Position numbers and translations under genes: made by a program. From positions 8,287 through 72,286 of the forward strand of contig JUEF01000135.1 of assembly GCA_000802045.1 (NCBI GenBank): 64,000 nucleotides of DNA, given 5' to 3'. This document shows, piece after piece, positions 10,819-23,399 of the stretch. Below the pieces are notes generated by a model. It saw only the letters and a list, made by a program, of their open reading frames with translations. It made no database searches and was not told the DNA's origin. Source of the stretch: Peptococcaceae bacterium BICA1-8 (GTDB lineage: Bacteria; Bacillota; Peptococcia; Peptococcales; BICA1-8). Positions within the stretch are counted from its first letter, which is position 1. Each line of letters starts with the position of its first letter.

Positions 10819-10921
10819 TTTTCTAAACATTTTTTTGTTGAATGCCCGAAAGAAGGAATATGAGGAAATAATGGCGAAATAAAGGTAATAAAAAATTCTT
10901 ATAGTTTGGGGGCATTTGATA

Positions 10922-11833
10922 TTGGTTAATGATAGCATTAGGGTCTTTCTGGCGGTAGCAGACAAAAGGAACTTTTCTAAGGCTGCTAAATCCTTGTTTT
11001 TGACCCAACCTGCAGTAAGCTTTCAGATTCAGATGCTAGAACAATATTATGGCACAGTCTTATTTGACAGAGTCAATCGCAATATTACATTAACATCTGC
11101 TGGTGAACTCCTATTGAGTTATGCGCAGGAATTAAGTACTCTTCAAGCAAATCTTGAAAGAGAAATGCAGGAGCTTACCGGTACAATTAAGGGTAGGTTG
11201 ATGCTGGGCGCTAGCACAACCATAGGTGAATATGTTTTGCCCTACCTGGTAGGAGGATTTAAAAAGCAATTTCCCGAAGTTGACGTAAGCTTAGTGGTAG
11301 CTAATACTGAGGATATTGAAACAAGTATTCTCAATACTACTTTAGATGTAGCATTAGTAGAGGGTCCTGTGAGTGGTAAAGATCTGAATACGGAGAAGTT
11401 TCTTGATGATGAATTAGTATTAATTACTCCGATGGATCACCCTTGGGTAAATAATAAAAGAATCTCTGTTTTTGAGTTAAGCCAATATCCTTTTATCACT
11501 AGAGAGAAAGGTTCAGGAACAAGGCATATTATGGAGAATGCTTTTAAAAAGGTGGGTTTTAACCCAAATAATCTGAACATTATAATGGAATTAGGTAGTA
11601 CTACTGCTATTAAAGCAGCAGTATCTAGCGGATTAGGTGTTTCAATCATTTCTGAATGGGCCGCTAAGGATTTGGTAAAACAAAACAAGTTGGCGACTAT
11701 AGCTATACATGAAACAAAGTTTGAACGCCAATTTACTGTTATTTATCATGAGAAAAAATTTAGAACAAAGGCTGCATATGAATTTCTAAACTTTTTGCGT
11801 AGTGAAGAGGTCCATGATATGCTAAAACAATAA
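10922..11833 (+). CDS. LysR-family transcriptional regulator (paralog 1, YeiE-like context)
   Basis: HTH region FSKAAKSLFLTQPAVSFQIQMLE. Start set by alignment to paralog 2 and a GGGGG RBS; the ORF track starts at 10916. Confidence 0.85.
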   Translation: MVNDSIRVFLAVADKRNFSKAAKSLFLTQPAVSFQIQMLEQYYGTVLFDRVNRNITLTSAGELLLSYAQELSTLQANLEREMQELTGTIKGRLMLGASTTIGEYVLPYLVGGFKKQFPEVDVSLVVANTEDIETSILNTTLDVALVEGPVSGKDLNTEKFLDDELVLITPMDHPWVNNKRISVFELSQYPFITREKGSGTRHIMENAFKKVGFNPNNLNIIMELGSTTAIKAAVSSGLGVSIISEWAAKDLVKQNKLATIAIHETKFERQFTVIYHEKKFRTKAAYEFLNFLRSEEVHDMLKQ

Positions 11834-11858
11834 TTTATTAATAAGGCAGGGAACGTTC

Positions 11859-12746
11859 GTGCTGATACGTAATAGTCTAAGTAAGGTTTTAAGGGAAAAA
11901 GAGATAACATTAGCACAACTAGCAGAGGAGAATAACATCCCCATAGCAACCTTAGAACAAATTTATTTAGGACACAAAGAGTTTACTCCTGAAATCTTAA
12001 ATAAAATAGCAGATTACTTAAATATTTCCCAAGAAGCTATATTATTTGACAGTAAAAAAAATATTTATGATAATATTGGTATCCAGCTCAGACAAATTAG
12101 GGAAGAAAAGAAGATGACCTTAATTCAATTGGGTAAAATATCCGGTGTTTCTTATACTCATATCAGTGAAATTGAGCGAGGGAAAACCTGCGCTTCCCTA
12201 AAAACTTTAGAAAAACTGGCCATAGTTTTAGAAATTCCTACAAGATATTTTTTTCAACTTGAGGAAAATTTTACCTTGGGTGATAAAGTAAGAAGGTTAA
12301 GGGAGAAGCAGAATCTTACCCAGGTTCAGCTAGCAGAAAAATTTGGTGTATCCCTAAGTCTAATAGGGCAAATTGAAACTGGTAGGGTTAAGCCTGCATT
12401 AGATACTTTACAAAGCATTGCCAATGTTTTTGGAGTGAATATTTGTTATTTTCTTATGACAGAAACTGAGGAAATGTCTTTGAGACAGGCGAACTCTGGC
12501 TGTGCAACTTCCTATGATAAACTTATAGAATTAACTCAAGGAATTCAGCCCCAAGGTTTTGCTTTAATAATTGATTTAATAAATGTATTAAAAACCCACA
12601 ATCGTTTTAATATCAATGATGAAATTATAAATAACCAGACTAAAGAACTATTAGATATTATGGCTGATCTTTCTGAGGATGATAAAAATTATATTATTGA
12701 AAACGCCCGTTGGGTTTTAAAAAAAGCAAAATCAAATACGCAATAA
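11859..12746 (+). CDS. Protein with three tandem XRE-type HTH domains plus a ~90-aa C-terminal domain
   Basis: Three repeats of the XRE pattern: ..ITLAQLAEENNIPIATLEQIYLG.., ..MTLIQLGKISGVSYTHISEIERGK.., ..LTQVQLAEKFGVSLSLIGQIETGR... Confidence 0.8.
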   Translation: MLIRNSLSKVLREKEITLAQLAEENNIPIATLEQIYLGHKEFTPEILNKIADYLNISQEAILFDSKKNIYDNIGIQLRQIREEKKMTLIQLGKISGVSYTHISEIERGKTCASLKTLEKLAIVLEIPTRYFFQLEENFTLGDKVRRLREKQNLTQVQLAEKFGVSLSLIGQIETGRVKPALDTLQSIANVFGVNICYFLMTETEEMSLRQANSGCATSYDKLIELTQGIQPQGFALIIDLINVLKTHNRFNINDEIINNQTKELLDIMADLSEDDKNYIIENARWVLKKAKSNTQ

Positions 12747-12768
12747 ATCGCCCAAAAGGCGATTTTTC
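12745..12768 (+). terminator. Intrinsic terminator
   Basis: AAATCGCC-CAAAA-GGCGATTT followed by TT; begins on the last base (12745) of the final sense codon CAA (12743-12745), so the TAA stop codon (12746-12748) lies inside the 5' stem. Confidence 0.7.
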
Positions 12769-13073
12769 CTATTTAGTACCTTCTACACTAGTTATATTCT
12801 GATAAGTCTTGTTAAATAAATTTACATTAATGTGACCGAACTTTCTTTAGATAAAAAGAAGGGAATAATAAAATAATTGTTGAATGTTGTAAATTGGGGT
12901 GATAAGGGACAGTATAAACATACATTATTAAACAAATTTCTTTACTATATTTTTCTGCTAGAAGTTTCTAAAATGGTTTAGAAATAAATAGTAGGTATTC
13001 AACGAAAGAGTGTAAAATCTAATTAATAAATATAAAAAAACTATTAATTATTTATGAAAGGTGGAATACGACT

Positions 13074-13985
13074 TTGTTAAATGATAGTATTAGAGTATTT
13101 CTGACAGTTGTTGATAAAAAAAGTTTTTCTAAGGCTGCAAAAGCATTGTTTCTTACACAGCCAGCTATTAGTTTTCAAATTCAGATGCTTGAAGAATATT
13201 ATGGGACAAGACTTTTTGATAGGGTAAGTAGGAATATTTCTTTGACTCAGGCCGGGCATTTATTGCTTGGATATGCTAATCACATGACTAAATTGCAAAG
13301 TGAGCTAGAGAGAGAAATGCAAGAATTAACCGGAACTATCAAAGGACGGCTATTAATCGGTGCCAGTACAACTATTGGTGAATATATTGTTCCCTATCTT
13401 TTAGGTGCATTTAAGAAAAAATATCCTGAGGTAGAGCTCTCCTTAGAGGTTGGTAATTCAGAGGATATTGAAAATAAGATTCACGATACATCATTGGATA
13501 TAGGGCTTGTGGAAGGACCGGTAACCGTTAAGGATATTGAAAAGGAACTGTTTTTAAAAGACCAAATGGTTTTAGTAGTTTCCCATGACCACCCTTGGGC
13601 TCAACTGGATAAAATATCCGTATTTGAATTAGATAAATTCCCCTTTATTTCTAGAGAAAAGGGGTCAGGGACAAGAATTGAGACTGAGCAGCATTTGAAA
13701 AAGACGGGTTTTTCTGCAAATAATTTAAAAGTTATTATGGAATTGGGAAGTACTTCTGCGATAAAAGCAGCAGTGGAAAGCGGCTTAGGTATGTCTATTA
13801 TCTCTAAGTGGGCCGCAAAAGAAAAGGTTAAACTGGGGCAGCTTGCGCAGCTTAATTTCAAGGAGGATATTTTTGAGAGAGATTTTAATGTTATCCACCA
13901 TAAGAAAAAGTTCCGTACCCAGGCAGCTGATGAGTTTCTGCGTTTTATAAAAACAAGTGAGGCTTTAGATTTATTAGAAAGGTAG
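13074..13985 (+). CDS. LysR-family transcriptional regulator (paralog 2)
   Basis: Collinear with the 10922-11833 product along its whole length (same HTH and TGTIKGRL motif). TTG start after AAGGTGG. Confidence 0.85.
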   Translation: MLNDSIRVFLTVVDKKSFSKAAKALFLTQPAISFQIQMLEEYYGTRLFDRVSRNISLTQAGHLLLGYANHMTKLQSELEREMQELTGTIKGRLLIGASTTIGEYIVPYLLGAFKKKYPEVELSLEVGNSEDIENKIHDTSLDIGLVEGPVTVKDIEKELFLKDQMVLVVSHDHPWAQLDKISVFELDKFPFISREKGSGTRIETEQHLKKTGFSANNLKVIMELGSTSAIKAAVESGLGMSIISKWAAKEKVKLGQLAQLNFKEDIFERDFNVIHHKKKFRTQAADEFLRFIKTSEALDLLER

Positions 13986-14040: not shown

Positions 14041-14086
14041 AATAAAGAAGAAGCACATTAAATAGTGCTTCTTCTTCTTTATTTAT
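14041..14086. terminator. Bidirectional hairpin terminator between convergent genes
   Basis: AATAAAGAAGAAGCAC-ATTAAATA-GTGCTTCTTCTTCTTTATT, flanked by A/T runs on both sides. Confidence 0.75.
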
Positions 14087-14382
14087 TATTTCTTACTTTC
14101 CATCCAAGATATAAATTTAAAGCAGGCGTATCCCCAAAGGAAAAAAAGGCCGAAGAAGAGGAAGGGTTGCTTAGTTCCTAAAGTAATGCTCTTTTCTCCA
14201 AAAAATATTTCTTCCCATCCAGGGAGATCCGTATAATAATATTGACCAGGGCCAAAGTCCAGACCCTCAATCAGACCTATATTATTACGCATTATGTATA
14301 TTGCAACAATTAGTACTGAAGCTAGAACTAGGATACTTAGTATATTTAGCCTGCGGGTCGTAAGGAATTTCTGACTACCCAT
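14086..14382 (-). CDS. Small two-TM membrane protein, family A/B (paralog of 18098-18367)
   Basis: GAGGTG RBS. Shares GxGxYYY, GTKxP, FFxLFFxW and CxxFxxWME motifs with the other small ORF. Confidence 0.7.
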   Translation of the reverse strand: MGSQKFLTTRRLNILSILVLASVLIVAIYIMRNNIGLIEGLDFGPGQYYYTDLPGWEEIFFGEKSITLGTKQPFLFFGLFFLWGYACFKFISWMESKK

Positions 14383-14617
14383 AACAACACCTCAATATGA
14401 TATGATTTTATAACTTTATTATACTGCTAATTGATGAATTGAAAAGATAATTCCAAAAAAACATTATATTAAAAGCTGTCTTCCTTTTAAAGCTCGCCTC
14501 CTTCCAGTGGAGCTAAAACTATGGCAAAGGAATATGTTTTCCGCTTAATAATTAAATTATAAGCATAAAAGGAACTTATGCATATCCCTCTTTTGTACTA
14601 ATTGACGAAATTTGCTG

Positions 14618-14651
14618 AAAAAAAAGGGTCCATTCCGTAAAGAATGGACCC
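14618..14651 (-). terminator. Intrinsic terminator of YeiH paralog 1
   Basis: On the minus strand: GGGTCCATTC-loop-GAATGGACCC followed by T8. Confidence 0.85.
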
Positions 14652-14664
14652 TTTAAAGAAGCAA

Positions 14665-16002
14665 TTATACTGTTAATACTGGAATTGGGAATATAACGCC
14701 ACTGAGTAGTAACCAAGCAACTAATAAGGTTAATACTAGGTTAAAGCTTTGACCTACAATGTATAACCAAAGTGGCTTACCGCCTTGGACAAGCTCAGCC
14801 ATTTCTTTAAAGTTGGACTCAAGGCCGATACAGACAAATGCCATACAGAAGCACCAGCCCTTCCAGCCACCTGTTAGACCTAATAGAGTTTTTGTTTCTT
14901 TAGCACCAATTGCCGGCTCAACAATAAAGGAGAAGATTAAAGACGCACCAATAAAACCAAGGATAAATTTGGGGAAACGGTGCCAGATTTCATCTGCTCC
15001 CACAGAAGGTCCGTCAACATCTTTCTCAACTTTTGTTGCAAAAAATACAGCAATGGCAAAAGCAATAACACCAATTAATACGTTTTGAATCATTTTAACA
15101 AGAGCAGCAACCTGACCCCCTAGTGGCCCTAATGCTTCACCGGCTAATACAACAGCACCTGTTGCGTCAACTGTACCACCGATCCAAGCACCGCCAACCA
15201 TAGGATCCATACCAATAGCTTTAATAAAGATAGGCATACCAACCATCATTAAAACTGTAAAAATTAAGGATAAGCCAATTGCAAAGGTTAAATCGTCCTT
15301 TTTAGCTTTGGAAGCGGCTGCTGCAGCGATAGCGGCTGAAACACCACAAACAGAAGTAGCAGTAGCGATAACTATTACCATAGGCTTACTGGTCATTTTA
15401 AGTATTTTTGTACCATAATGCCACATGAAAATAATTACGATAGGAGTAACGAACCAAGCAATACCTAAACCATAGATACCAAATTTAACTACATTGGAGA
15501 AAAGAACCTCAGCACCCATTAAAACCAGACCGGTTTTAATGTAGTATTCAGTTTTTACAGCAGGCTTTAACCAATCGGGAGTTTTTACAGTATTACTTAC
15601 TAAAAGACCTACTGCTAATGCCCAGAAAGCATACTCTACATATTTTTTCATAGTTGCTTGAGCACCTAATATATAGGCAATTGTAGCTAAGAGGAATATT
15701 ACAGGGAAGGCAATTGCAAATTTAGGTACGTTTTCGCCCATAAATACTAATCCAATTGAAAAAAGAGCAGTTAATACAACCATTGTGATTAGTAAACTAG
15801 CAATATCAAAAGAACCTAAGAAACTTGGAACCTTTTCGGTTCCCCATGTTGCGATCTTGGATGCATTAAACTTAAAAGCTCCTGTGGATTTACTGATAGC
15901 AGCTATTATAATTACGATAAGTCCAAGCCAAATTGCCCACCAGTCTTCTTTCTTTATTAAATCCGACCATTTAAACTTACTAGCTGTTACGACATCTGAC
16001 AT
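14665..16002 (-). CDS. YeiH/UPF0324 family membrane transporter (putative sulfate-exporter family), paralog 1
   Basis: Polytopic, 445 aa. Start moved to MSDVV (16002) by alignment with the paralogs and a GGAGGTG RBS 8 nt upstream. Confidence 0.9.
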   Translation of the reverse strand: MSDVVTASKFKWSDLIKKEDWWAIWLGLIVIIIAAISKSTGAFKFNASKIATWGTEKVPSFLGSFDIASLLITMVVLTALFSIGLVFMGENVPKFAIAFPVIFLLATIAYILGAQATMKKYVEYAFWALAVGLLVSNTVKTPDWLKPAVKTEYYIKTGLVLMGAEVLFSNVVKFGIYGLGIAWFVTPIVIIFMWHYGTKILKMTSKPMVIVIATATSVCGVSAAIAAAAASKAKKDDLTFAIGLSLIFTVLMMVGMPIFIKAIGMDPMVGGAWIGGTVDATGAVVLAGEALGPLGGQVAALVKMIQNVLIGVIAFAIAVFFATKVEKDVDGPSVGADEIWHRFPKFILGFIGASLIFSFIVEPAIGAKETKTLLGLTGGWKGWCFCMAFVCIGLESNFKEMAELVQGGKPLWLYIVGQSFNLVLTLLVAWLLLSGVIFPIPVLTV

Positions 16003-16383
16003 ATAAAGCACCTCCAAAATTTAAAATATTTTATAGGGTATTTGAACAATTAATTTTTTTAATCCCTCCTTATAATTTAGATAAATAACGCCGCGGTACA
16101 GTCATTGAGCATATTGATGCTGTCATACACACAAATTTAGGGTGTGTTTTAATTATAAGTTATCAAAAAAAATCTTTATATCATTCTTTAATACCATCTT
16201 TATTAAATGCATTAGGAAAATTTATTAATTTAGGAAAAAGCATTTGTTGAACTAAAAAATTAAGATAATGCAGGTAGATGAAATTAGACTAAATCTCATA
16301 ATAATAAAATAAAGAGGCCAGATGGCCGCTTTAAAAGGAAATAATTATTCAATTATCATTTTTCGTAGTAGTAGCATTTTAGT

Positions 16384-16424: not shown

Positions 16425-17768
16425 TTATACTGTTAATACTGGAATTGGGAAGATAACGCCGCTTAGTAATAACCAGGCTACTAATAAGGTTAATACTAAG
16501 TTAAAGCTTTGTCCCACGACATACAGCCAAAGTGGCTTACCACCTTGAACAAGCTCAGCCATGTCCTTGAAGTTAGACTCAAGACCAATTGATACGAAGG
16601 CCATGCAGAAGCACCATGCTTTCCAACTTCCAGATAAGGAAAGTATAGCTTTAGTATCCTTTGTACCTATTGAAGGCTCAACCAAGAAGGAGAATATTAT
16701 CGATCCTACAATAAAACCAAGAATAAATTTAGGGAAACGGTGCCAAATTTCATCGGCGCCCACAGAGGGTCCATCAACATCTTTTTCAACTTTTGTTGCA
16801 AAAAATACGGCAATGGCAAAAGCGATAACACCAATAAGAACGTTTTGAATCATTTTAACCAGAGCAGCAACTTGACCTGCTAATGGCCCTAAGGTTTCTC
16901 CGGCAAGTACAACTGCACCGGTAGCATCAATGGTTCCACCCATCCATGCTCCACCAAGCATCTCATTCATACCAATAGCTTTAATGAACATAGGCATGAA
17001 GACCATCATTAATACGGTGAAGATAAGGGTTAAACCGATGGCAAAGGTTAAGTCTTCTTTCTTTGCTTTAGAAGCAGCGGCAGCGGCAATAGCTGCAGAA
17101 ACCCCGCAAACCGAAGTAGCTGTCGCAATAACGATAACCATAGGTTTGCTGGTCATTTTCAAGATTTTGGTACCATAATACCACATAAAGACTATAACAA
17201 TTGGAGTAACAAACCAAGCAATACCTAGACCGTAGAAACCAAATTTAACAACATTGGAGAATAGTACTTCAGCACCCATCAGTACAAGACCTGTTTTAAT
17301 ATAGTATTCTGTTTTAACGGCCGGCTTTAGCCACTCGGGGGTTTTTACGGTATTACTTACCGCAAGTCCGACCACTAGTGCCCAGAAGGCGTACTCAATA
17401 TATTTTTTCATTGTGGCTTGAGCACCAAATACATAAGCAATTGTTGCTAAGATAAAAACAACAGGGAAGGCGATTAAGAAGCCTTTCACATCTTCTCCCA
17501 TAACTTTAAGACCGAGAGCAAATAATGCACCTAGTACAATTAGACTGAAAATTAATAAGCCTACTTGACCATTAAAAGCATCCATAATGCTAGGCGCCTT
17601 TTCATTTCCCCAAGTAGCTATTTTGGCGGCCTTAAAGGCGAAAGCACCTGTAAATTTACTTATTGCTGCTAAAGCTAATACAATGAATCCAAGCCAAATT
17701 GCCCACCAATCTTCTTTCTTTGTTAAATCAGACCATTTAAACTTACTAGCTGTTACGATATCTGACAT
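16425..17768 (-). CDS. YeiH/UPF0324 family membrane transporter, paralog 2
   Basis: 447 aa. Very similar to paralog 1, including an identical C-terminus LLSGVIFPIPVLTV. Confidence 0.9.
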   Translation of the reverse strand: MSDIVTASKFKWSDLTKKEDWWAIWLGFIVLALAAISKFTGAFAFKAAKIATWGNEKAPSIMDAFNGQVGLLIFSLIVLGALFALGLKVMGEDVKGFLIAFPVVFILATIAYVFGAQATMKKYIEYAFWALVVGLAVSNTVKTPEWLKPAVKTEYYIKTGLVLMGAEVLFSNVVKFGFYGLGIAWFVTPIVIVFMWYYGTKILKMTSKPMVIVIATATSVCGVSAAIAAAAASKAKKEDLTFAIGLTLIFTVLMMVFMPMFIKAIGMNEMLGGAWMGGTIDATGAVVLAGETLGPLAGQVAALVKMIQNVLIGVIAFAIAVFFATKVEKDVDGPSVGADEIWHRFPKFILGFIVGSIIFSFLVEPSIGTKDTKAILSLSGSWKAWCFCMAFVSIGLESNFKDMAELVQGGKPLWLYVVGQSFNLVLTLLVAWLLLSGVIFPIPVLTV

Positions 17769-18097: not shown

Positions 18098-18367
18098 ATG
18101 AAGCAGAGGCCAAAAATAAATAGTAAGTTAGGGAAAATGAGTTTATTGATAATTTTAATAATTATAGTAGTAATTGTTTATGCTATTGTAGTAGATCCTT
18201 GGAACATAAGTGAGGCGCCTTACGGCGCTGGGGATTATTATTATGATGAAGTAGAGGGTTATGATTTTAGCATAAGCATAGGTACTAAACATCCTATTAT
18301 ATTTTTCATTTTGTTTTTTGGCTGGGCTTTTGGCTGCTGGCATTTTTTAAAGTGGATGGAAAGATAA
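18098..18367 (+). CDS. Small two-TM membrane protein, family A/B (paralog of 14086-14382)
   Basis: ATG at 18098 lies 5 nt after GAGGTG. Shares motifs with the 14086-14382 product. Confidence 0.7.
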   Translation: MKQRPKINSKLGKMSLLIILIIIVVIVYAIVVDPWNISEAPYGAGDYYYDEVEGYDFSISIGTKHPIIFFILFFGWAFGCWHFLKWMER

Positions 18368-18463: not shown

Positions 18464-18492
18464 AAAAAAAGCCGAGCTATTGCTCGGCTTTA
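18464..18492. terminator. Bidirectional terminator (small ORF on +, YeiH paralog 3 on -)
   Basis: A7-GCCGAGC-TATT-GCTCGGC-TTTAATT. Confidence 0.75.
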
Positions 18493-18499
18493 ATTAATT

Positions 18500-19843
18500 T
18501 TACATTGTTAAATTGGGTATTGGGAAGATAATTCCACTTAACAGCAACCAAGCCACTAAGAGAGTTAATACTAAGTTAAAGGTTTGACCAACAATGTATA
18601 ACATTAATGGCTTGCCGCCTTGTACAAGCTCAGCCATATCTTTAAAGTTAGATTCTAATCCTATACAGGTAAAGGCCAGACAGAAGCACCATCCTCTAAA
18701 GCCTTTAGCTAAGCCCGTAACGCCCTTTGTTCCAGCTGCACCCAAAACGGGTTCTACTATAAAGGAAAAAATGACTGAGGCTGCTATGAAACCAAGGATG
18801 AATTTTGGGAAGCGATGCCAGATTTCACTAGCTCCTACAGCAGGGCCGTCGACATCTTTGTCTACTTTAGTTGCAAAAAATACAGCTATGGCGAAGGCGA
18901 TAACGCCTATAAGTACGTTTTGAATCATTTTAACCATTGCAGCTACTTGACCAGCCAAAGGTCCCAATGCTTCTCCAGCAAGAACAACTGCACCGGTAGC
19001 ATCAATTGTTCCACCCATCCAGGCTCCACCTATCATTTCGTTCATGCCAATAGCTTTAATAATCATAGGCATGAAGATCATCATTATAACTGTAAAAATG
19101 AGGGTTAAACCAATGGCGAAAGTTAAATCTTCTTTTTTAGCTTTAGAAGCTGCAGCAGCGGCAATGGCTGCCGAAACACCACAAACAGAAGTCGCGGTAG
19201 CGATTACAATAATCATGGGTTTGCTAACCATTTTTAATACTCTAGTACCGTAATACCACATAAATATTACTACTATTGGAGTAACAAACCAGGCTATACC
19301 TAATCCGTAAATACCGAATTTTACAATGTTTGAAAAGAGAACTCCAGAACCCATTACAACCAAACCTGTTTTTATATAATACTCTGTCTTAACAGCTGGT
19401 TTTAGCCATTCAGGGGTCTTTATAGTATTGCTAACCAAAAGACCAATAGCCAGCGCCCAAAAAGCGTAGCCTAAATAGTTTTTTATGCCGGCATTAGCTG
19501 AAAAGAGATAGGCTAATGTTGAAAGAATGAATACTACCGGGAAACCAATGAGGAATTTCCCAACATCACCGCCCATTACTTTCAGACCGATAGCGAATAA
19601 AGCGCCTAGTATTATCATTGTTATTAATAATGATGGTAAAGTACCATTAAAGGAATCAAAAATACTAGGTGCTTTCTCTACACCCCAGGTATTAAGTTTA
19701 GCGGCTTTAAAGCTAAAAGTACCAGTAGTAGAACTAATAAATGAGAGAATAAGGATAATAAATCCAAGCCAAATTGCCCACCAATCTTCTTTATTGATAA
19801 GATCTTTCCATTCAAACTTACTAGTCGTTACGACATCAGACAT
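18500..19843 (-). CDS. YeiH/UPF0324 family membrane transporter, paralog 3 (most diverged)
   Basis: 447 aa, collinear with paralogs 1 and 2. AGGAGGTG RBS. Confidence 0.9.
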   Translation of the reverse strand: MSDVVTTSKFEWKDLINKEDWWAIWLGFIILILSFISSTTGTFSFKAAKLNTWGVEKAPSIFDSFNGTLPSLLITMIILGALFAIGLKVMGGDVGKFLIGFPVVFILSTLAYLFSANAGIKNYLGYAFWALAIGLLVSNTIKTPEWLKPAVKTEYYIKTGLVVMGSGVLFSNIVKFGIYGLGIAWFVTPIVVIFMWYYGTRVLKMVSKPMIIVIATATSVCGVSAAIAAAAASKAKKEDLTFAIGLTLIFTVIMMIFMPMIIKAIGMNEMIGGAWMGGTIDATGAVVLAGEALGPLAGQVAAMVKMIQNVLIGVIAFAIAVFFATKVDKDVDGPAVGASEIWHRFPKFILGFIAASVIFSFIVEPVLGAAGTKGVTGLAKGFRGWCFCLAFTCIGLESNFKDMAELVQGGKPLMLYIVGQTFNLVLTLLVAWLLLSGIIFPIPNLTM

Positions 19844-20330: not shown

Positions 20331-21662
20331 GTGAAAAATAATTTAGAAGACTATTATGTGAATATCAAATGGATGGCTTTTGTTATTCCAGTCCTATGGG
20401 TAGGCATTTATGAAGTGTTACGGTTTCAAATTCTAGGCAATATATTTACGCCAATCATTAATAGTGTCATATTAATATGTTCAGTTGGTTTTTTCGGACT
20501 TATTTTTTCGGCATATTTGTTTAGAAAGATTAGGACTATTCATAATTCACTTTTTTTAGAACAGCAAAAACTGAAAACTATCTTTCATCATACATCTGAC
20601 GGAATTATCGTTTTAGGAGAGAATTGTCAGATCCTTGATATCAACCCAGCCGTAGAAAAATTAACAGGGTGGAAAGCTAAAGAGGTAATTAAGAAAATTA
20701 CTTGTGAAGAAATGAACCGGTGTTTAAAGAGTACAGAGGCCTGTTGGAATTCTCAAAATCCCGAAGGCTGCATGAATGTAGACTGTGGGCATAGGGAGTG
20801 CTGGGGTAAGACTTGCCTGGAAAAACAAATTTCAGTTCCCCATGTAGAGATGTGTCTTGTTTGTAAAAATGGTAAGAAAATTAAGGTTGCCGCCAGTTAT
20901 TCTTACATACCTGCTGTAGGCGAGGAAAAGCCGTTGGTAAAGCTTGTTCTAAGAGATATCTCTGAAAAAAAAGAATTTGAAAAGGCTATTCAAAATTATG
21001 CTACTTTAGAGGAAAGATACAGACTAGCCAGAGAAATGCATGATGGATTAGCGCAAGCTTTAGTTTATTTAAATATTAAGGCTTATAATATTCAAAAGAA
21101 TTTAGAAAAGCATGGTAACCATGATTCTATTATTAATGACCTAGTTGAAATAAGGCAGGTTACCCAGGAGGCTGTTAATGAAGTCCGTCAGAATATTTTT
21201 GATTTAAAAACACCTCCTAGAGATGAAACTAGTTGTTTTAGGGTATGGATTGAGGATTATCTAAAAAACTTTGGTTTTATAAATCATTTAGATACTGAGT
21301 TTTTCTGTAATTGTCAGGCAGCACTTATATTACCTACTGATGTCAAAGTTCAATTAATTAGGATTATTCAGGAGGCTTTAACTAATATCAGAAAGCATGC
21401 TCGAGCTACAAAAATAAATATCTTTTTAACAAAGAATGAGAAGAAATTAATTATTAAAATTACTGATAATGGAAAAGGTATTGATTTAACTACTCTAAAT
21501 ATGGACACAAAGGAACATTTCGGATTAACTATAATGAAGGAAAGAGCTCAAATTATCGGAGGAGATATAAAAATTATTCCAGGTGAAGCCCGAGGAACTC
21601 TTGTAGAATTGACTTTGCCATTGATTAATGGATATGAAAGAAATAATAGGATAGCAAATTAG
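20331..21662 (+). CDS. Membrane sensor histidine kinase, HisKA_3/NarL-partner type, with a PAS-like domain carrying a nine-Cys insert
   Basis: Two N-terminal TM helices, H-box REMHDGLAQAL, and HATPase motifs (DNGKGI, GLTIMKERA). Cys-rich segment encoded at 20703-20864. GTG start. Confidence 0.85.
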   Translation: MKNNLEDYYVNIKWMAFVIPVLWVGIYEVLRFQILGNIFTPIINSVILICSVGFFGLIFSAYLFRKIRTIHNSLFLEQQKLKTIFHHTSDGIIVLGENCQILDINPAVEKLTGWKAKEVIKKITCEEMNRCLKSTEACWNSQNPEGCMNVDCGHRECWGKTCLEKQISVPHVEMCLVCKNGKKIKVAASYSYIPAVGEEKPLVKLVLRDISEKKEFEKAIQNYATLEERYRLAREMHDGLAQALVYLNIKAYNIQKNLEKHGNHDSIINDLVEIRQVTQEAVNEVRQNIFDLKTPPRDETSCFRVWIEDYLKNFGFINHLDTEFFCNCQAALILPTDVKVQLIRIIQEALTNIRKHARATKINIFLTKNEKKLIIKITDNGKGIDLTTLNMDTKEHFGLTIMKERAQIIGGDIKIIPGEARGTLVELTLPLINGYERNNRIAN

Positions 21663-21693
21663 TTGTACCGGCTGATTTAAAGGGGGCATTGAA

Positions 21694-22347
21694 ATGTTAA
21701 AGTTTAAAGTACTTTTAGTCGATGACCACGCTTTATTCCGTAAAGGGATGGCCAGTTTATTAAATGAACTTAAGGAACTAGAAATAATTGGCGAAGCAAG
21801 TAATGGTAAAGAAGGGGTTGAGAAAGCTAGAGAACTCAAGCCAGATATTATTATCATGGATGTGGAAATGCCTGAGATGACAGGAGTAGAGGCAGTAAAA
21901 GTTATTAAAGAGGAACTTCCACAGTGTAAAGTAGTTATGCTAACAATATCTGAGGATGATGACAATTTATTTAAATCAATTAAAAATGGAGCTCAAGGGT
22001 ATTTATTAAAGAGTATGGACCCTGATGATTTAATTAGACAAATAAAAGATTTGTTAAAGGGTGAGGCTGCTTTATCAAAGACGATAGCTAGTAAAATTTT
22101 AAAAGAATTTGCAAACCTTTCTAAAAAGCAAAAGGAAGTAGATTATCATAAATTTAATCTGACTGAAAGAGAGGGAGAGGTTTTAATTCAGGTAGCTCAG
22201 GGAATTACTAATAAGGAGATTGCTCTTGAACTGGCGATTACTGAGAATACAGTTAAGAATCACCTCTGCAATATCATGGAAAAACTCCACCTCCAGAATC
22301 GTGTCCAGTTAGCGACTTTTGCCTGGCGGGAAGGGTTTGTTGAATAA
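21694..22347 (+). CDS. NarL/LuxR-family response regulator
   Basis: Receiver domain (VLLVDDH...DIIIMDVEMPEMTG) plus a LuxR-type HTH (LTEREGEVLIQVAQGITNKEIA). Confidence 0.9.
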   Translation: MLKFKVLLVDDHALFRKGMASLLNELKELEIIGEASNGKEGVEKARELKPDIIIMDVEMPEMTGVEAVKVIKEELPQCKVVMLTISEDDDNLFKSIKNGAQGYLLKSMDPDDLIRQIKDLLKGEAALSKTIASKILKEFANLSKKQKEVDYHKFNLTEREGEVLIQVAQGITNKEIALELAITENTVKNHLCNIMEKLHLQNRVQLATFAWREGFVE

Positions 22348-22526: not shown

Positions 22527-23399
22527 ATGGAATTTCCTCAATGGGATATTCTAATTATCGGTTGTGGGCCCGCTGGGCTTTCAGCGGCGGTAAATGCGAC
22601 AATTCGTAACAAAAAGGCAATAGTATATGGCGGAGAGTTTTGCAGTCCCAAGCTTCATAAAGCTCCACATGTCAATAACTATTTAGGTTTCTGGGATGTA
22701 TCAGGAGAAGAATTGCGGAAAAAATATCTCAATCATGTTCAACAGTTAGATATAAAAATGGAATGTCATAAAATTGATAATATTTACCCTGCCGGGAAAT
22801 CTTTTAATGTTGTCAGTAAGGGCAATATGATTATGTGTAATGCAATAATAATTGCAGTAGGCTTGCAAAATCCTAAATACCTGCCAGGAGAAGAGGAACT
22901 GTTGGGCAAGGGTGTGGGTTATTGTGCTACCTGTGATGGCCCTTTGTATAAAGGGAAAAAGGTTGCAGTAATTGGTTATAACACAGAGGCAGAGGAAGAG
23001 GTTAACTATTTGGCCGGGTTAGCTAGCCAAGTTATATATCTTCCGTTGTATCAAGGGCTAGGAAGTATCGACAGTAGAGTTCGAATTTTAAATGAAAGAC
23101 CCAAGGCTCTATTAGGTACAGATAGATTACAAGCACTAGAAACGGAAGGGGAAACCCTAGAACTAGATGGATTATTTATTATTCGGGATAGTGTTCCTCC
23201 AGCTCAGCTTTTGCCTGGCTTGGAGCTTGAGGAAAACGCAATAGTAGTAAATAGAAAAATGTCTACAAATATAACCGGTGTATTTGCTGCCGGTGACTGC
23301 ACCGGTGCCCCTTATCAGCTGGCCAAAGCAGTAGGTGAAGGAGCAGTTGCAGGACTAAGTGCTGTGAGTTATTTGGAAGAAATGAATAAGGGAAAGTAG
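22527..23399 (+). CDS. Thioredoxin-reductase-like flavoprotein with a CATC redox motif but no recognisable NADPH-binding motifs
   Basis: IIGCGPAGLSAA FAD fingerprint and a CATCDG active site. The position of GGGxSA reads GYNTEA, and no HRRxxxR motif follows. Confidence 0.8.
   Translation: MEFPQWDILIIGCGPAGLSAAVNATIRNKKAIVYGGEFCSPKLHKAPHVNNYLGFWDVSGEELRKKYLNHVQQLDIKMECHKIDNIYPAGKSFNVVSKGNMIMCNAIIIAVGLQNPKYLPGEEELLGKGVGYCATCDGPLYKGKKVAVIGYNTEAEEEVNYLAGLASQVIYLPLYQGLGSIDSRVRILNERPKALLGTDRLQALETEGETLELDGLFIIRDSVPPAQLLPGLELEENAIVVNRKMSTNITGVFAAGDCTGAPYQLAKAVGEGAVAGLSAVSYLEEMNKGK

What the first reader, a model, noticed from the sequence alone, without database searches (positions are those of the whole stretch)
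14086..14382. A pair of paralogous small two-TM proteins accompanies the YeiH paralogs; possible accessory subunit
The 98-aa product of 14086-14382 (-) and the 89-aa product of 18098-18367 (+) share a distinctive architecture. Each has an N-terminal TM helix and a short loop with GxGxYYY (GPGQYYY / GAGDYYY). Next come (L/I)GTK(Q/H)P and a second hydrophobic stretch FFxLFFxW, then a C-terminal CxxFxxWME (CFKFISWME / CWHFLKWME). Both have good RBSs (GAGGTG). Each lies next to a YeiH gene, one downstream of paralog 1 and the other between paralogs 2 and 3. I do not recognise the family. Conservation of the motifs between two diverged copies argues that they are real genes.
Basis: partly seen in the sequence, partly recalled or inferred. 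Interest (0 to 1): 0.6.

Follow-up and report, generated by a model that had tools for sequence, protein, structure and literature searches.

The report
Small membrane partner of YeiH-type transporters
Two small two-helix membrane proteins in this window belong to an unnamed family whose genes almost always sit directly beside one branch of YeiH-type (probably sulfite) transporter genes in many anaerobic bacteria, so they are most likely a previously unrecognised accessory subunit of that transporter.

Summary
Both ORFs exist as described, are 41% identical (E 7e-15) and evolve under purifying selection (dN/dS about 0.1-0.25).

They belong to an unnamed family: no Pfam, NCBIfam or PDB match, and every source calls them hypothetical. 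Relatives were confirmed at 515 sites in species-representative genomes from several phyla.

In 74 of the best 80 loci the small gene lies directly downstream of a long (445-465 aa) PF03601 gene, often overlapping its stop codon. In the reverse test, seeded on the transporter, all 51 loci carrying the small gene have it directly downstream. A more distant transporter clade has a single-helix small gene with a similar motif (FYTEVxGW). In two contigs that motif is fused to the transporter's C-terminus.

Two small-protein subtypes track two transporter clades, even within one genome.

Neighbouring genes (sulfite-reductase-like, siroheme, dsrMKJOP, sulfonate genes, YeiE-like LysR regulators) and published YeiH genetics point to sulfite or a related oxyanion.

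Best reading: a dedicated accessory membrane subunit. Physical contact, substrate and transport direction remain inferred.

The parts
14086..14382 (-). small1: 98-aa two-TM protein, type 1 (DFGPGQYYYTDLPGW loop)
   Evidence: ORF and sequence. Family profile hit E 3.9e-36. 100% identical to a hypothetical protein of Peptococcaceae bacterium BICA1-8. AF2 model has helices 4-32 and 73-97. dN/dS 0.22 against the L008 orthologue.
18098..18367 (+). small2: 89-aa two-TM protein, type 2 (PYGAGDYYYDEVEGY loop). It deviates from its orthologues (YYYTDVEGF) at the near-invariant T and D.
   Evidence: Family profile hit E 4.7e-26. Orthologues in L001, L002, L011, L088 and L036.
14665..16017 (-). PF03601 paralog 1 (450 aa): long 'PSE_2' form, clade A, the presumed partner of small1
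   Evidence: Pfam E 3.3e-45. AF2 pLDDT 82.5, pTM 0.78, with two extra N-terminal helices at 24-45 and 72-93. Aligns to E. coli YeiH only from residue 133. Clade from the tree.
16425..17768 (-). PF03601 paralog 2 (447 aa), clade A, 84% identical to paralog 1
18500..19843 (-). PF03601 paralog 3 (447 aa), clade B. It is convergent with small2 and groups with transporters that have only a type-2 small gene nearby.
   Evidence: Same tail-to-tail layout in Desulfonispora thiosulfatigenes (L088).
14623..14654 (-). Intrinsic-terminator-like hairpin plus T-run just after paralog 1. It separates paralog 1 from small1 in this genome.
   Evidence: sequence.
14418..14445 (-). Promoter-like TTTTCA-16 nt-TATAAT upstream of small1. 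It overlaps a 38-nt relic (14418-14455) resembling the 3' end of the PF03601 genes.
   Evidence: 10 of 12 matches. Repeat family D5 at 71-74% identity, in register with all three gene ends. Alignment.
14044..14077 (-). Terminator-like hairpin after small1, shared with the convergent LysR gene
18468..18491 (.). Bidirectional terminator-like hairpin between small2 and paralog 3
13074..13985 (+). LysR regulator, YeiE-like (32% identity to E. coli YeiE). Above threshold for NF040786, 'selenium metabolism-associated LysR'.
   Evidence: 280.5 bits against a cutoff of 250; E 1e-50.
10916..11833 (+). Second LysR regulator of the same NF040786 type
   Evidence: 272.2 bits against a cutoff of 250.
11859..12746 (+). 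295-aa protein with three HTH_3 domains, syntenic with the cluster in relatives. A similar gene sits next to a NIR_SIR gene and a type-2 pair in L091.
20331..22347 (+). PAS/HisKA_3 histidine kinase with a Cys-rich insert, plus a NarL-type response regulator. They flank the cluster and are syntenic in relatives.

Best explanation
The two small proteins are dedicated membrane partners, most likely stoichiometric accessory subunits, of the long 'PSE_2' branch of PF03601/YeiH secondary transporters.

Each small protein is a hairpin. The N-terminus is inside, TM1 crosses outward, a conserved acidic and aromatic loop (G-L-x-x-G-L-D-F-G-x-G-x-Y-Y-Y-T-D-I/V-P-G-W) lies on the outer face, TM2 crosses back, and a short basic C-terminus is inside.

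The proposed mechanism is inferred. The hairpin packs against the transporter in the membrane. The loop docks on the transporter's extracytoplasmic face near its C-terminal tail, where it is needed for assembly, stability or gating of an elevator-type carrier.

Type 1 (small1) serves clade-A paralogs 1 and 2. Type 2 (small2) serves clade-B paralog 3.

The substrate is probably sulfite or a closely related oxyanion (thiosulfate, sulfate, selenite, molybdate), under control of YeiE-like LysR regulators. Transport direction is not resolved.

Shown: the family exists, evolves under constraint, is linked to the transporter gene in both search directions, and its subtypes track transporter clades. 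A distantly similar motif, whose homology to this family is unproven, is fused to the transporter in two contigs.

Inferred: physical contact, the role in transport, and the substrate.
For: 1. Forward linkage. The motif scan of species-representative genomes confirmed 515 sites. In 74 of the best 80 loci a PF03601 homologue of 430-930 bits ends just upstream on the same strand, and in one more it lies just downstream. Of 68 measured gaps, 25 are overlaps, 22 are 1-30 nt, 13 are 31-100 nt and 8 are 101-300 nt. Taxa include Clostridia, Lachnospiraceae, Bacteroidales, Kiritimatiellia, Lentisphaeraceae, Synergistaceae and Verrucomicrobia.

2. Reverse linkage. In 80 metagenome loci seeded on the transporter, 51 carry the 2-TM gene, always directly downstream (28 overlaps, 19 at 1-30 nt). 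These are nearly all transporters scoring at least 480 bits.

3. The more distant transporter clade has a single-TM small ORF in the same position in 14 loci, with the motif DATALFYTEVDGW. In L157 and L166 that motif is the transporter's own C-terminal tail. Another member overlaps a PF03601 stop codon by 4 nt. Profile-profile comparison aligns this motif with the YYYTDIPGW loop at E 7e-4 to 1e-3.

4. Paralog-specific pairing. Clade-A transporters have a type-1 small gene downstream. Clade-B transporters (paralog 3, L088, L036) have a type-2 small gene convergent or upstream. P0016 and P0037, which carry the type-2 motif, likewise sit just upstream of a PF03601 gene whose clade was not determined.

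5. Coding constraint: dN/dS 0.1-0.25.

6. E. coli YeiH, the short PSE_1 form, has no room for such a gene.

7. Substrate context. NIR_SIR sulfite-reductase-like genes occur in 11 loci, and siroheme genes, dsrMKJOP plus a CbiA/DsrN-like gene, rhodanese, and SsuA ABC plus HpsG also occur. YeiH confers sulfite resistance in Salmonella under the sulfite-binding regulator YeiE (PMC12880088). A Bordetella YeiH homologue is reported as a sulfite exporter (bioRxiv 10.64898/2026.04.22.720190).

8. In D. vulgaris, disrupting the PSE gene DVU0543 or the adjacent 133-aa single-TM gene DVU0544 gives the same positive fitness under molybdate (PMC10102598).
Against: There is no direct evidence of physical interaction.

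In this window neither small gene is in an operon with a transporter gene. small1 is separated from paralog 1 by a terminator-like hairpin and has its own promoter-like site. small2 is on the opposite strand.

There are three transporter paralogs but only two small genes.

Four of the 80 forward loci have a small gene with no PF03601 gene within about 6 kb (L019, L023, L050, L084).

Eleven distant PSE_2 loci in the reverse sample have no separate small ORF nearby. Two of these (L157-type L166 among them) carry the motif as a fused tail and one (L169) has a possible small ORF upstream, so about 8 show no recognisable partner.

The link between the 2-TM and single-TM families rests on a 15-18 residue motif with only 21-26% hhalign probability.

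Whether DVU0544 belongs to either family could not be tested. The substrate is inferred from context only.
Confidence: 0.68

Rival explanations
1. The small protein is a regulator of the transporter rather than a structural subunit. It would be a small membrane protein that inhibits, activates or stabilises the carrier under certain conditions, in the manner of AcrZ, KdpF, MgtS or SgrT. It could be expressed independently and sub-stoichiometrically.
For: In this window and its close relatives, small1 has its own promoter-like site and is separated from paralog 1 by a terminator-like hairpin. small2 is convergent or divergent with its neighbours. There are three transporters for two small genes. 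Orphan copies exist, such as L050 next to a sulfonate ABC transporter and HpsG.
Against: In most taxa the start codon overlaps or lies within 30 nt of the transporter's stop codon, the pattern of translationally coupled subunits. The related motif is covalently fused to the transporter in L157 and L166, which fits a constitutive structural element better than a conditional regulator.
Confidence: 0.17
2. The small protein has its own function in the same pathway and does not bind the transporter. It might be a membrane-anchored extracytoplasmic peptide that binds or handles the substrate or a metal, or that anchors another periplasmic factor. Gene linkage would then reflect a shared pathway only.
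For: The most conserved part is an extracytoplasmic Tyr, Asp and Trp-rich loop. A few small genes occur without a PF03601 neighbour but next to other transporters or sulfonate genes (L019, L023, L050, L084).
Against: Small-protein subtype co-diversifies with transporter clade within single genomes. The motif is fused to the transporter's own tail. No third conserved gene is shared across phyla.
Confidence: 0.1
3. The small protein is the detached missing part of the transporter: a split-off helix, re-entrant loop and helix that completes the truncated second repeat of the PSE fold. This would resemble the way LrgA and LrgB split one transporter between two genes.
For: PF03601 was proposed to be a truncated 2HCT-like transporter, and the related LrgAB and LysO families exist as two-gene forms (PMC8396727). 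The small gene usually lies at the 3' side. Its loop has a GxG motif like those at the tips of re-entrant hairpins (my own recollection of CitS, not tested here).
Against: hhalign finds no similarity between the small family and any part of the transporter. The AF2 model shows an extended, low-confidence loop rather than a hairpin. The single-TM and fused-tail variants carry only the motif and no second helix. E. coli and Salmonella YeiH function without any such partner.
Confidence: 0.05

Closest known systems
YeiH / PSE family (PF03601, TC 2.A.98): E. coli and Salmonella YeiH, Bordetella BP2808
   Same: The large partner genes are PF03601 members. They are paired with a YeiE-like LysR regulator (32% identity). 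They sit in sulfur-oxyanion contexts that match the published sulfite phenotypes.
   Different: The characterised proteins are the short PSE_1 form (349 aa) and act alone; E. coli yeiH has no small gene beside it. The window proteins are the PSE_2 form with two extra N-terminal helices. They are only 23% identical to YeiH and fall below the TIGR00698 cutoff. They come with a small partner.
DVU0543/DVU0544 of Desulfovibrio vulgaris Hildenborough
   Same: A PSE-family transporter gene is followed by a small transmembrane protein gene. Both give the same fitness phenotype under molybdate (PMC10102598). A histidine kinase and response regulator pair is adjacent, as in the window.
   Different: DVU0544 is described as 133 aa with one TM helix, whereas the window proteins have two. 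Its homology to either small family could not be tested here. The paper assigns it no role.
LrgA/LrgB (CidA/CidB) two-gene transporters
   Same: They are placed in the same 're-entrant-helix-re-entrant' fold class as PF03601, and they consist of a small membrane protein plus a larger carrier encoded by adjacent genes (PMC8396727).
   Different: In the paper's table LrgA is listed separately from LrgB, and an LrgAB form combines them, so LrgA is part of the transporter architecture. The proteins here have two helices, show no Pfam match of any kind, and show no similarity to the carrier.
TRAP transporter small subunit DctQ
   Same: It works like this in concept: a small membrane protein that accompanies an elevator-type carrier and extends its static scaffold (established knowledge of TRAP transporters, not tested here).
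   Different: It is an unrelated family with four helices and no conserved extracytoplasmic motif. No Pfam hit.
YjcH (DUF485) with ActP, and YhdT with PanF
   Same: These are roughly 100-aa proteins with about two TM helices, encoded next to a secondary transporter gene and of unknown role (my own knowledge).
   Different: The partner transporter family is different (sodium:solute symporters). There is no sequence relationship and no Pfam hit.

Membership tests
PF03601 (Cons_hypoth698 / PSE / YeiH) - large partner genes | Pfam PF03601 domain above the gathering score | tested here: met
   154.8, 162.2 and 158 bits against a cutoff of 24.5.
PF03601 (Cons_hypoth698 / PSE / YeiH) - large partner genes | [quoted passage not shown] | tested here: not met
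   62.6-70.6 bits against a cutoff of 232.6. These proteins form a distinct subfamily, not the YeiH subfamily proper.
PF03601 (Cons_hypoth698 / PSE / YeiH) - large partner genes | PSE_2 topology: two extra N-terminal helices relative to PSE_1 | tested here: met
   AF2 helices at 24-45 and 72-93 precede the region that aligns to E. coli YeiH from residue 133. PSE_1 and PSE_2 are defined in PMC8396727.
PF03601 (Cons_hypoth698 / PSE / YeiH) - large partner genes | Transport of sulfite or a sulfur oxyanion | not testable with these tools
   Only context is available: NIR_SIR, siroheme, dsrMKJOP and sulfonate genes, and a YeiE-like LysR.
Unnamed 2-TM small-protein family (alignment A2) | Loop motif [FY]G[APC]GxYYY[TA]D between two hydrophobic helices, followed by LFxxWG in helix 2 | tested here: met
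   small1 matches fully. small2 has YGAGDYYYDE (T to D, D to E) but still hits the family profile at E 4.7e-26.
Unnamed 2-TM small-protein family (alignment A2) | Gene adjacent to a PSE_2-type PF03601 gene | tested here: met
   small1 starts 282 nt downstream of paralog 1. small2 ends 132 nt from the end of paralog 3. Family-wide: 75 of 80 forward loci, and 51 of 51 reverse loci that carry the gene.
Any described small transporter-partner family in Pfam or NCBIfam (DUF485/YjcH, LrgA, DctQ, others) | Profile match at E <= 0.01 | tested here: not met
   No family for small1. For small2 only chance-level hits far below their cutoffs. Among 39 family members, three unrelated single hits at E 0.002-0.007. 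No PDB sequence match at E <= 10.
Single-TM PSE_2-partner family (alignments A5, A6) | Profile-level homology to the 2-TM family | tested here: inconclusive
   hhalign gives E 1e-3 and 7e-4, with probability 21% and 26%. Only the 15-18 residue motif aligns. Genomic position and predicted topology are the same.
NF040786 selenium metabolism-associated LysR regulator (neighbouring genes) | Score above the curated equivalog cutoff | tested here: met
   280.5 and 272.2 bits against a cutoff of 250.

The most novel reading that the evidence does not exclude
The PSE_2 transporter plus its small partner is an obligate two-component carrier for sulfite or a closely related oxyanion. It would be the unidentified sulfite uptake or exchange system of sulfite-respiring Firmicutes and of many gut and rumen anaerobes. 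The extracytoplasmic YYYTD(I/V)PGW loop, or its FYTEVxGW equivalent in single-TM and fused forms, would be a new modular element that forms part of the outer gate or substrate vestibule of an elevator transporter. It can be supplied in trans by a hairpin, in trans by a single-helix anchor, or in cis as a tail.
Probability: 0.25. Interest if true: 0.75.

Novelty: new variant of a known kind. Interest (0 to 1): 0.62.

Why it matters
YeiH-type transporters are among the most widespread poorly characterised bacterial membrane proteins. They have only recently been tied to sulfite stress in Salmonella and Bordetella.

A large branch of the family appears to need a small partner: 515 confirmed genomic sites in species-representative genomes, including abundant gut and rumen Bacteroidales and Lachnospiraceae and dsr-carrying Firmicutes. 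This changes how these carriers should be expressed, assayed and modelled, because a structure or transport assay of the large protein alone may fail.

It gives about a hundred sequence clusters of 'hypothetical' small proteins a testable role. It links them to sulfite, sulfonate and selenium metabolism in anaerobes. It also offers a natural series (hairpin in trans, single helix in trans, tail in cis) for dissecting how a short extracytoplasmic motif contributes to an elevator-type transporter.

It may explain why DVU0543 and DVU0544 share a phenotype in D. vulgaris.

Tried and rejected
1. Complex prediction. The decisive interface test therefore could not be run.

2. Split-transporter idea. 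hhalign of the small family against the PSE_2 alignment found nothing (6 columns, probability 0.2%).

3. Known families. Pfam and NCBIfam scans of both proteins and of 39 family members, and a PDB sequence search with the profile, gave no credible match.

4. Solved structure of the large partner. There is no sequence hit. Foldseek gives only weak CitS and Na+/H+ antiporter similarity (E about 1e-2, TM 0.25-0.41).

5. Regulatory RNA in the long intergenic regions. Rfam at E <= 1 returned only sub-threshold hits on terminators.

6. Fusions among close PSE_2 homologues. The 477-494 aa hits have only N-terminal extensions.

7. Literature searches for a sulfite importer or a PSE accessory subunit found nothing beyond the passing DVU0544 remark.

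8. I suspected a selenoprotein or missed ORF in the 12747-13073 gap, where relatives carry the type-2 gene. No family hit exists there at E <= 10, so the gene has simply moved.

9. A residue-level coevolution analysis was considered and not run. About 120 phylogenetically clustered pairs are too few.

Full report
**The observation**

The window comes from the MAG 'Peptococcaceae bacterium BICA1-8'; small1 is 100% identical to one of its hypothetical proteins.

ORF 14086-14382 (-) encodes 98 aa and ORF 18098-18367 (+) encodes 89 aa, as described. Each has GAGGTG 6-7 nt before the ATG, and every quoted motif is present. The two products align at 41% identity over 58 residues, E 7e-15.

Three 447-450 aa genes (14665-16017, 16425-17768 and 18500-19843, all on the minus strand) are PF03601 members. 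small1 lies downstream of the first. small2 lies between the second and third, convergent with the third.

An AF2 model of small1 (pLDDT 82) has helices at 4-32 and 73-97 and a less confident loop at 33-72. The ends are basic and the loop is acidic, so I infer N-in/C-in with the conserved loop outside.

Against orthologues, dN/dS is 0.1-0.25 wherever dS is not saturated. Both are real genes.

**The family**

No Pfam or NCBIfam model matches either protein or any of 39 relatives. No PDB chain matches the family profile. Sources call members hypothetical or uncharacterised, including RefSeq WP_053985773.1 (Niameybacter massiliensis) and WP_084052413.1 (Desulfonispora thiosulfatigenes).

A word-index search found 12 relatives. 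A profile search of 1.84 billion cluster representatives found 92 at E <= 1e-3.

Of these, 515 were confirmed by tblastn. They come from Clostridia, Lachnospiraceae, Bacteroidales, Kiritimatiellia, Lentisphaeraceae, Synergistaceae and Verrucomicrobia.

Family-wide, the conserved core is G-L-x-x-G-L-D-F-G-x-G-x-Y-Y-Y-T/A-D-I-P-G-W, then L-F-x-x-W-G in helix 2.

**Linkage to PF03601, tested from both sides**

*Seeded on the small gene.* I searched the best 80 loci with the window's transporter paralogs.
- In 74 loci a homologue of 430-930 bits ends just upstream on the same strand.
- In one (L036) it starts just downstream.
- One locus is broken by insertion sequences (L027).
- Four loci have none within about 6 kb (L019, L023, L050, L084).
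- Of 68 measured gaps, 25 are overlaps, 22 are 1-30 nt, 13 are 31-100 nt and 8 are 101-300 nt.
- The long gaps belong to the window's own Peptococcaceae relatives.

*Seeded on the transporter.* I took 80 metagenome loci found with RFPKFI[LI]G and VCG[VT]SAAIA.
- 51 carry the 2-TM gene, always directly downstream (28 overlaps, 19 at 1-30 nt).
- These are almost exactly the transporters scoring at least 480 bits against the window paralogs.

E. coli yeiH, the short 349-aa form, is followed by nfo after 73 nt, so there is no room for such a gene.

**A second partner form and a natural fusion**

Transporters scoring below about 475 bits lack the 2-TM gene. In 14 of them a different small ORF sits in the same place. 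It has a basic N-terminus, one helix, and then PGxxGExLRxNxxxDxDA(T/S)xLFYTEV(D/E)(G/N)(W/M).

This single-helix family has at least 356 clusters, all unnamed. One member overlaps a PF03601 stop codon by 4 nt.

In two independent contigs (L157, L166) the same motif, without the helix, is the C-terminal tail of the transporter itself: '...FGGVLFDRIPVTSEDIAARSVIRHNIDTDIEATALFYTEVPGWGEWMRRE'.

PF03601 proteins of this form are predicted to be N-in with 11 helices (PMC8396727). YeiH is described as having a periplasmic C-terminus (PMC12880088). So the motif is extracytoplasmic in the tail, the single-helix protein and the hairpin.

Profile-profile comparison aligns 'aGxYYYTDIPgW' with 'ASpLFYtEVenM/dgW' at E 1e-3 and 7e-4, with only 21-26% probability. 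I treat homology as plausible but unproven. The positional and topological equivalence is clear.

**Paralog-specific pairing**

A tree of the transporters separates two clades.
- Clade A contains window paralogs 1 and 2 and the genes directly upstream of type-1 small genes.
- Clade B contains window paralog 3, its orthologues in related MAGs, and the only transporters of Desulfonispora (L088) and a Thermoanaerobacteraceae MAG (L036).

Both of the latter have only a type-2 small gene (PYGAGDYYYTD), convergent or upstream. Two further type-2 genes (P0016, P0037) sit 29-72 nt upstream of their PF03601 gene.

Co-diversification of partner types within one genome is hard to explain by shared ancestry of neighbouring genes alone.

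**The large partner**

The AF2 model of paralog 1 (pLDDT 82.5, pTM 0.78) has two helices (24-45, 72-93) ahead of the region that aligns with E. coli YeiH. That alignment is 23% identical and starts at residue 133. This is the PSE_2 topology of Sudha and co-workers (PMC8396727).

No PF03601 structure has been solved. Foldseek finds only weak resemblance to CitS and Na+/H+ antiporters, which are elevator-type CPA/AT carriers. The small family shows no similarity to any part of the carrier.

**The likely substrate**

Both LysR genes beside the cluster exceed the cutoff of NF040786, 'selenium metabolism-associated LysR'. One is 32% identical to YeiE. YeiE is the sulfite-binding activator of yeiH in Salmonella, where yeiH is the main determinant of sulfite resistance (PMC12880088). 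A Bordetella YeiH homologue is reported as a sulfite exporter.

Recurrent neighbours of the pair elsewhere are:
- NIR_SIR sulfite-reductase-like genes in 11 loci, and siroheme or haem biosynthesis genes.
- dsrMKJOP-like genes, a CbiA/DsrN-like gene and rhodanese around type-2 pairs.
- In Bacteroidales, an anion porin upstream and a threonine-synthase/cysteate-synthase-like PLP enzyme downstream.
- One orphan small gene next to an SsuA-type ABC transporter and the glycyl-radical enzyme HpsG.

In D. vulgaris, disrupting the PSE gene DVU0543 or the adjacent 133-aa single-helix gene DVU0544 both improve fitness under molybdate (PMC10102598). This hints at oxyanion uptake and at a shared function. 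I could not test whether DVU0544 belongs to the families described here. Transport direction remains open.

**Local peculiarities of the window**

Here the pair is not an operon.
- A strong terminator-like hairpin follows paralog 1 (14654-14623).
- A TTTTCA-16-TATAAT site precedes small1.
- Hairpins follow small1 and lie between small2 and paralog 3.

The 38 nt at 14418-14455 resemble the last codons of all three transporter genes at 71-74% identity, in register with their stop codons. This suggests small1 once lay about 36 nt behind a transporter gene and was displaced by tandem duplication.

In relatives the type-2 gene sits between the LysR and triple-HTH genes. In the window that gap is empty and small2 lies among the transporters.

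**Verdict**

These are members of an undescribed small-protein family that is a near-obligate genomic partner of one large clade of YeiH-type transporters. A related motif is delivered in other clades by a single-helix protein or by the transporter's own tail.

A dedicated accessory subunit acting at the outer face of the carrier is the best-supported mechanism. Physical association, role in transport, substrate and direction still need structure prediction of the complex and experiments.

Noticed in passing
window 14418-14455: A 38-nt stretch just upstream of small1 resembles the 3' ends of all three PF03601 genes (71-74% identity, in register with their stop codons). It now overlaps the promoter-like TATAAT. 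It looks like a relic of an ancestral arrangement in which small1 lay about 36 nt behind a transporter gene, later split by tandem duplication.
   Followed up: partly
L157 973-2694 and L166 2920-4437 (metagenome contigs): PF03601 proteins whose C-terminal tail carries the FYTEV(P/E)GWG motif that is otherwise found in a separate single-helix small protein. This is a natural fusion.
   Followed up: partly
L156 1176-2861 and L160 2950-4677: PSE_2 variants of about 560-575 aa with an insertion of about 130 aa between the two extra N-terminal helices. They have no small partner gene and no tail motif. The insert might replace the partner.
   Followed up: no
L050 5962-11474: An orphan 2-TM small gene without a PF03601 neighbour lies upstream of an SsuA-type sulfonate ABC transporter and a glycyl-radical enzyme scoring 1497 bits for HpsG (sulfopropanediol enzyme). 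The same MAG has a normal transporter and small-gene pair on another contig (L055).
   Followed up: partly
L039, L068, L070, L080, L058, L085 (Bacteroidales loci): A conserved arrangement: phosphate-selective-type porin, PSE_2, small gene, then a 406-417 aa PLP enzyme with a zinc-ribbon-like N-terminus. The enzyme is related to threonine synthase and cysteate synthase but below both cutoffs. This may be an uptake-plus-assimilation module, perhaps towards cysteate or sulfonolipids. In 11 other Bacteroidales loci a CpXC-domain protein follows instead.
   Followed up: partly
window 10916-13985: Two paralogous LysR genes, both above the NF040786 'selenium metabolism-associated' cutoff, flank a 295-aa protein with three HTH_3 domains. 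The same trio is syntenic in relatives. A similar triple-HTH gene sits beside a NIR_SIR gene and a type-2 pair in L091.
   Followed up: partly
window 20331-21662: The histidine kinase next to the cluster has a Cys-rich segment inside its PAS region (CEEMNRCLKSTEACWNSQNPEGCMNVDCGHRECWGKTC), suggesting a metal or Fe-S redox sensor. It is syntenic with a NarL-type regulator and a thioredoxin-reductase-like gene (22527-23399) in relatives.
   Followed up: no
window 12747-13073 compared with L001 9360-9635, L002 9296-9568 and L011 2211-2498: Relatives carry the type-2 small gene between the LysR and triple-HTH genes. The window has an empty 327-nt gap there, and its type-2 gene lies between transporter paralogs 2 and 3. 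The small gene has therefore been relocated within the cluster.
   Followed up: partly
window 18098-18367: small2 reads GDYYYDEVEGYD where all its orthologues read GDYYYTDVEGFD. It has changed the family's near-invariant Thr and Asp.
   Followed up: no
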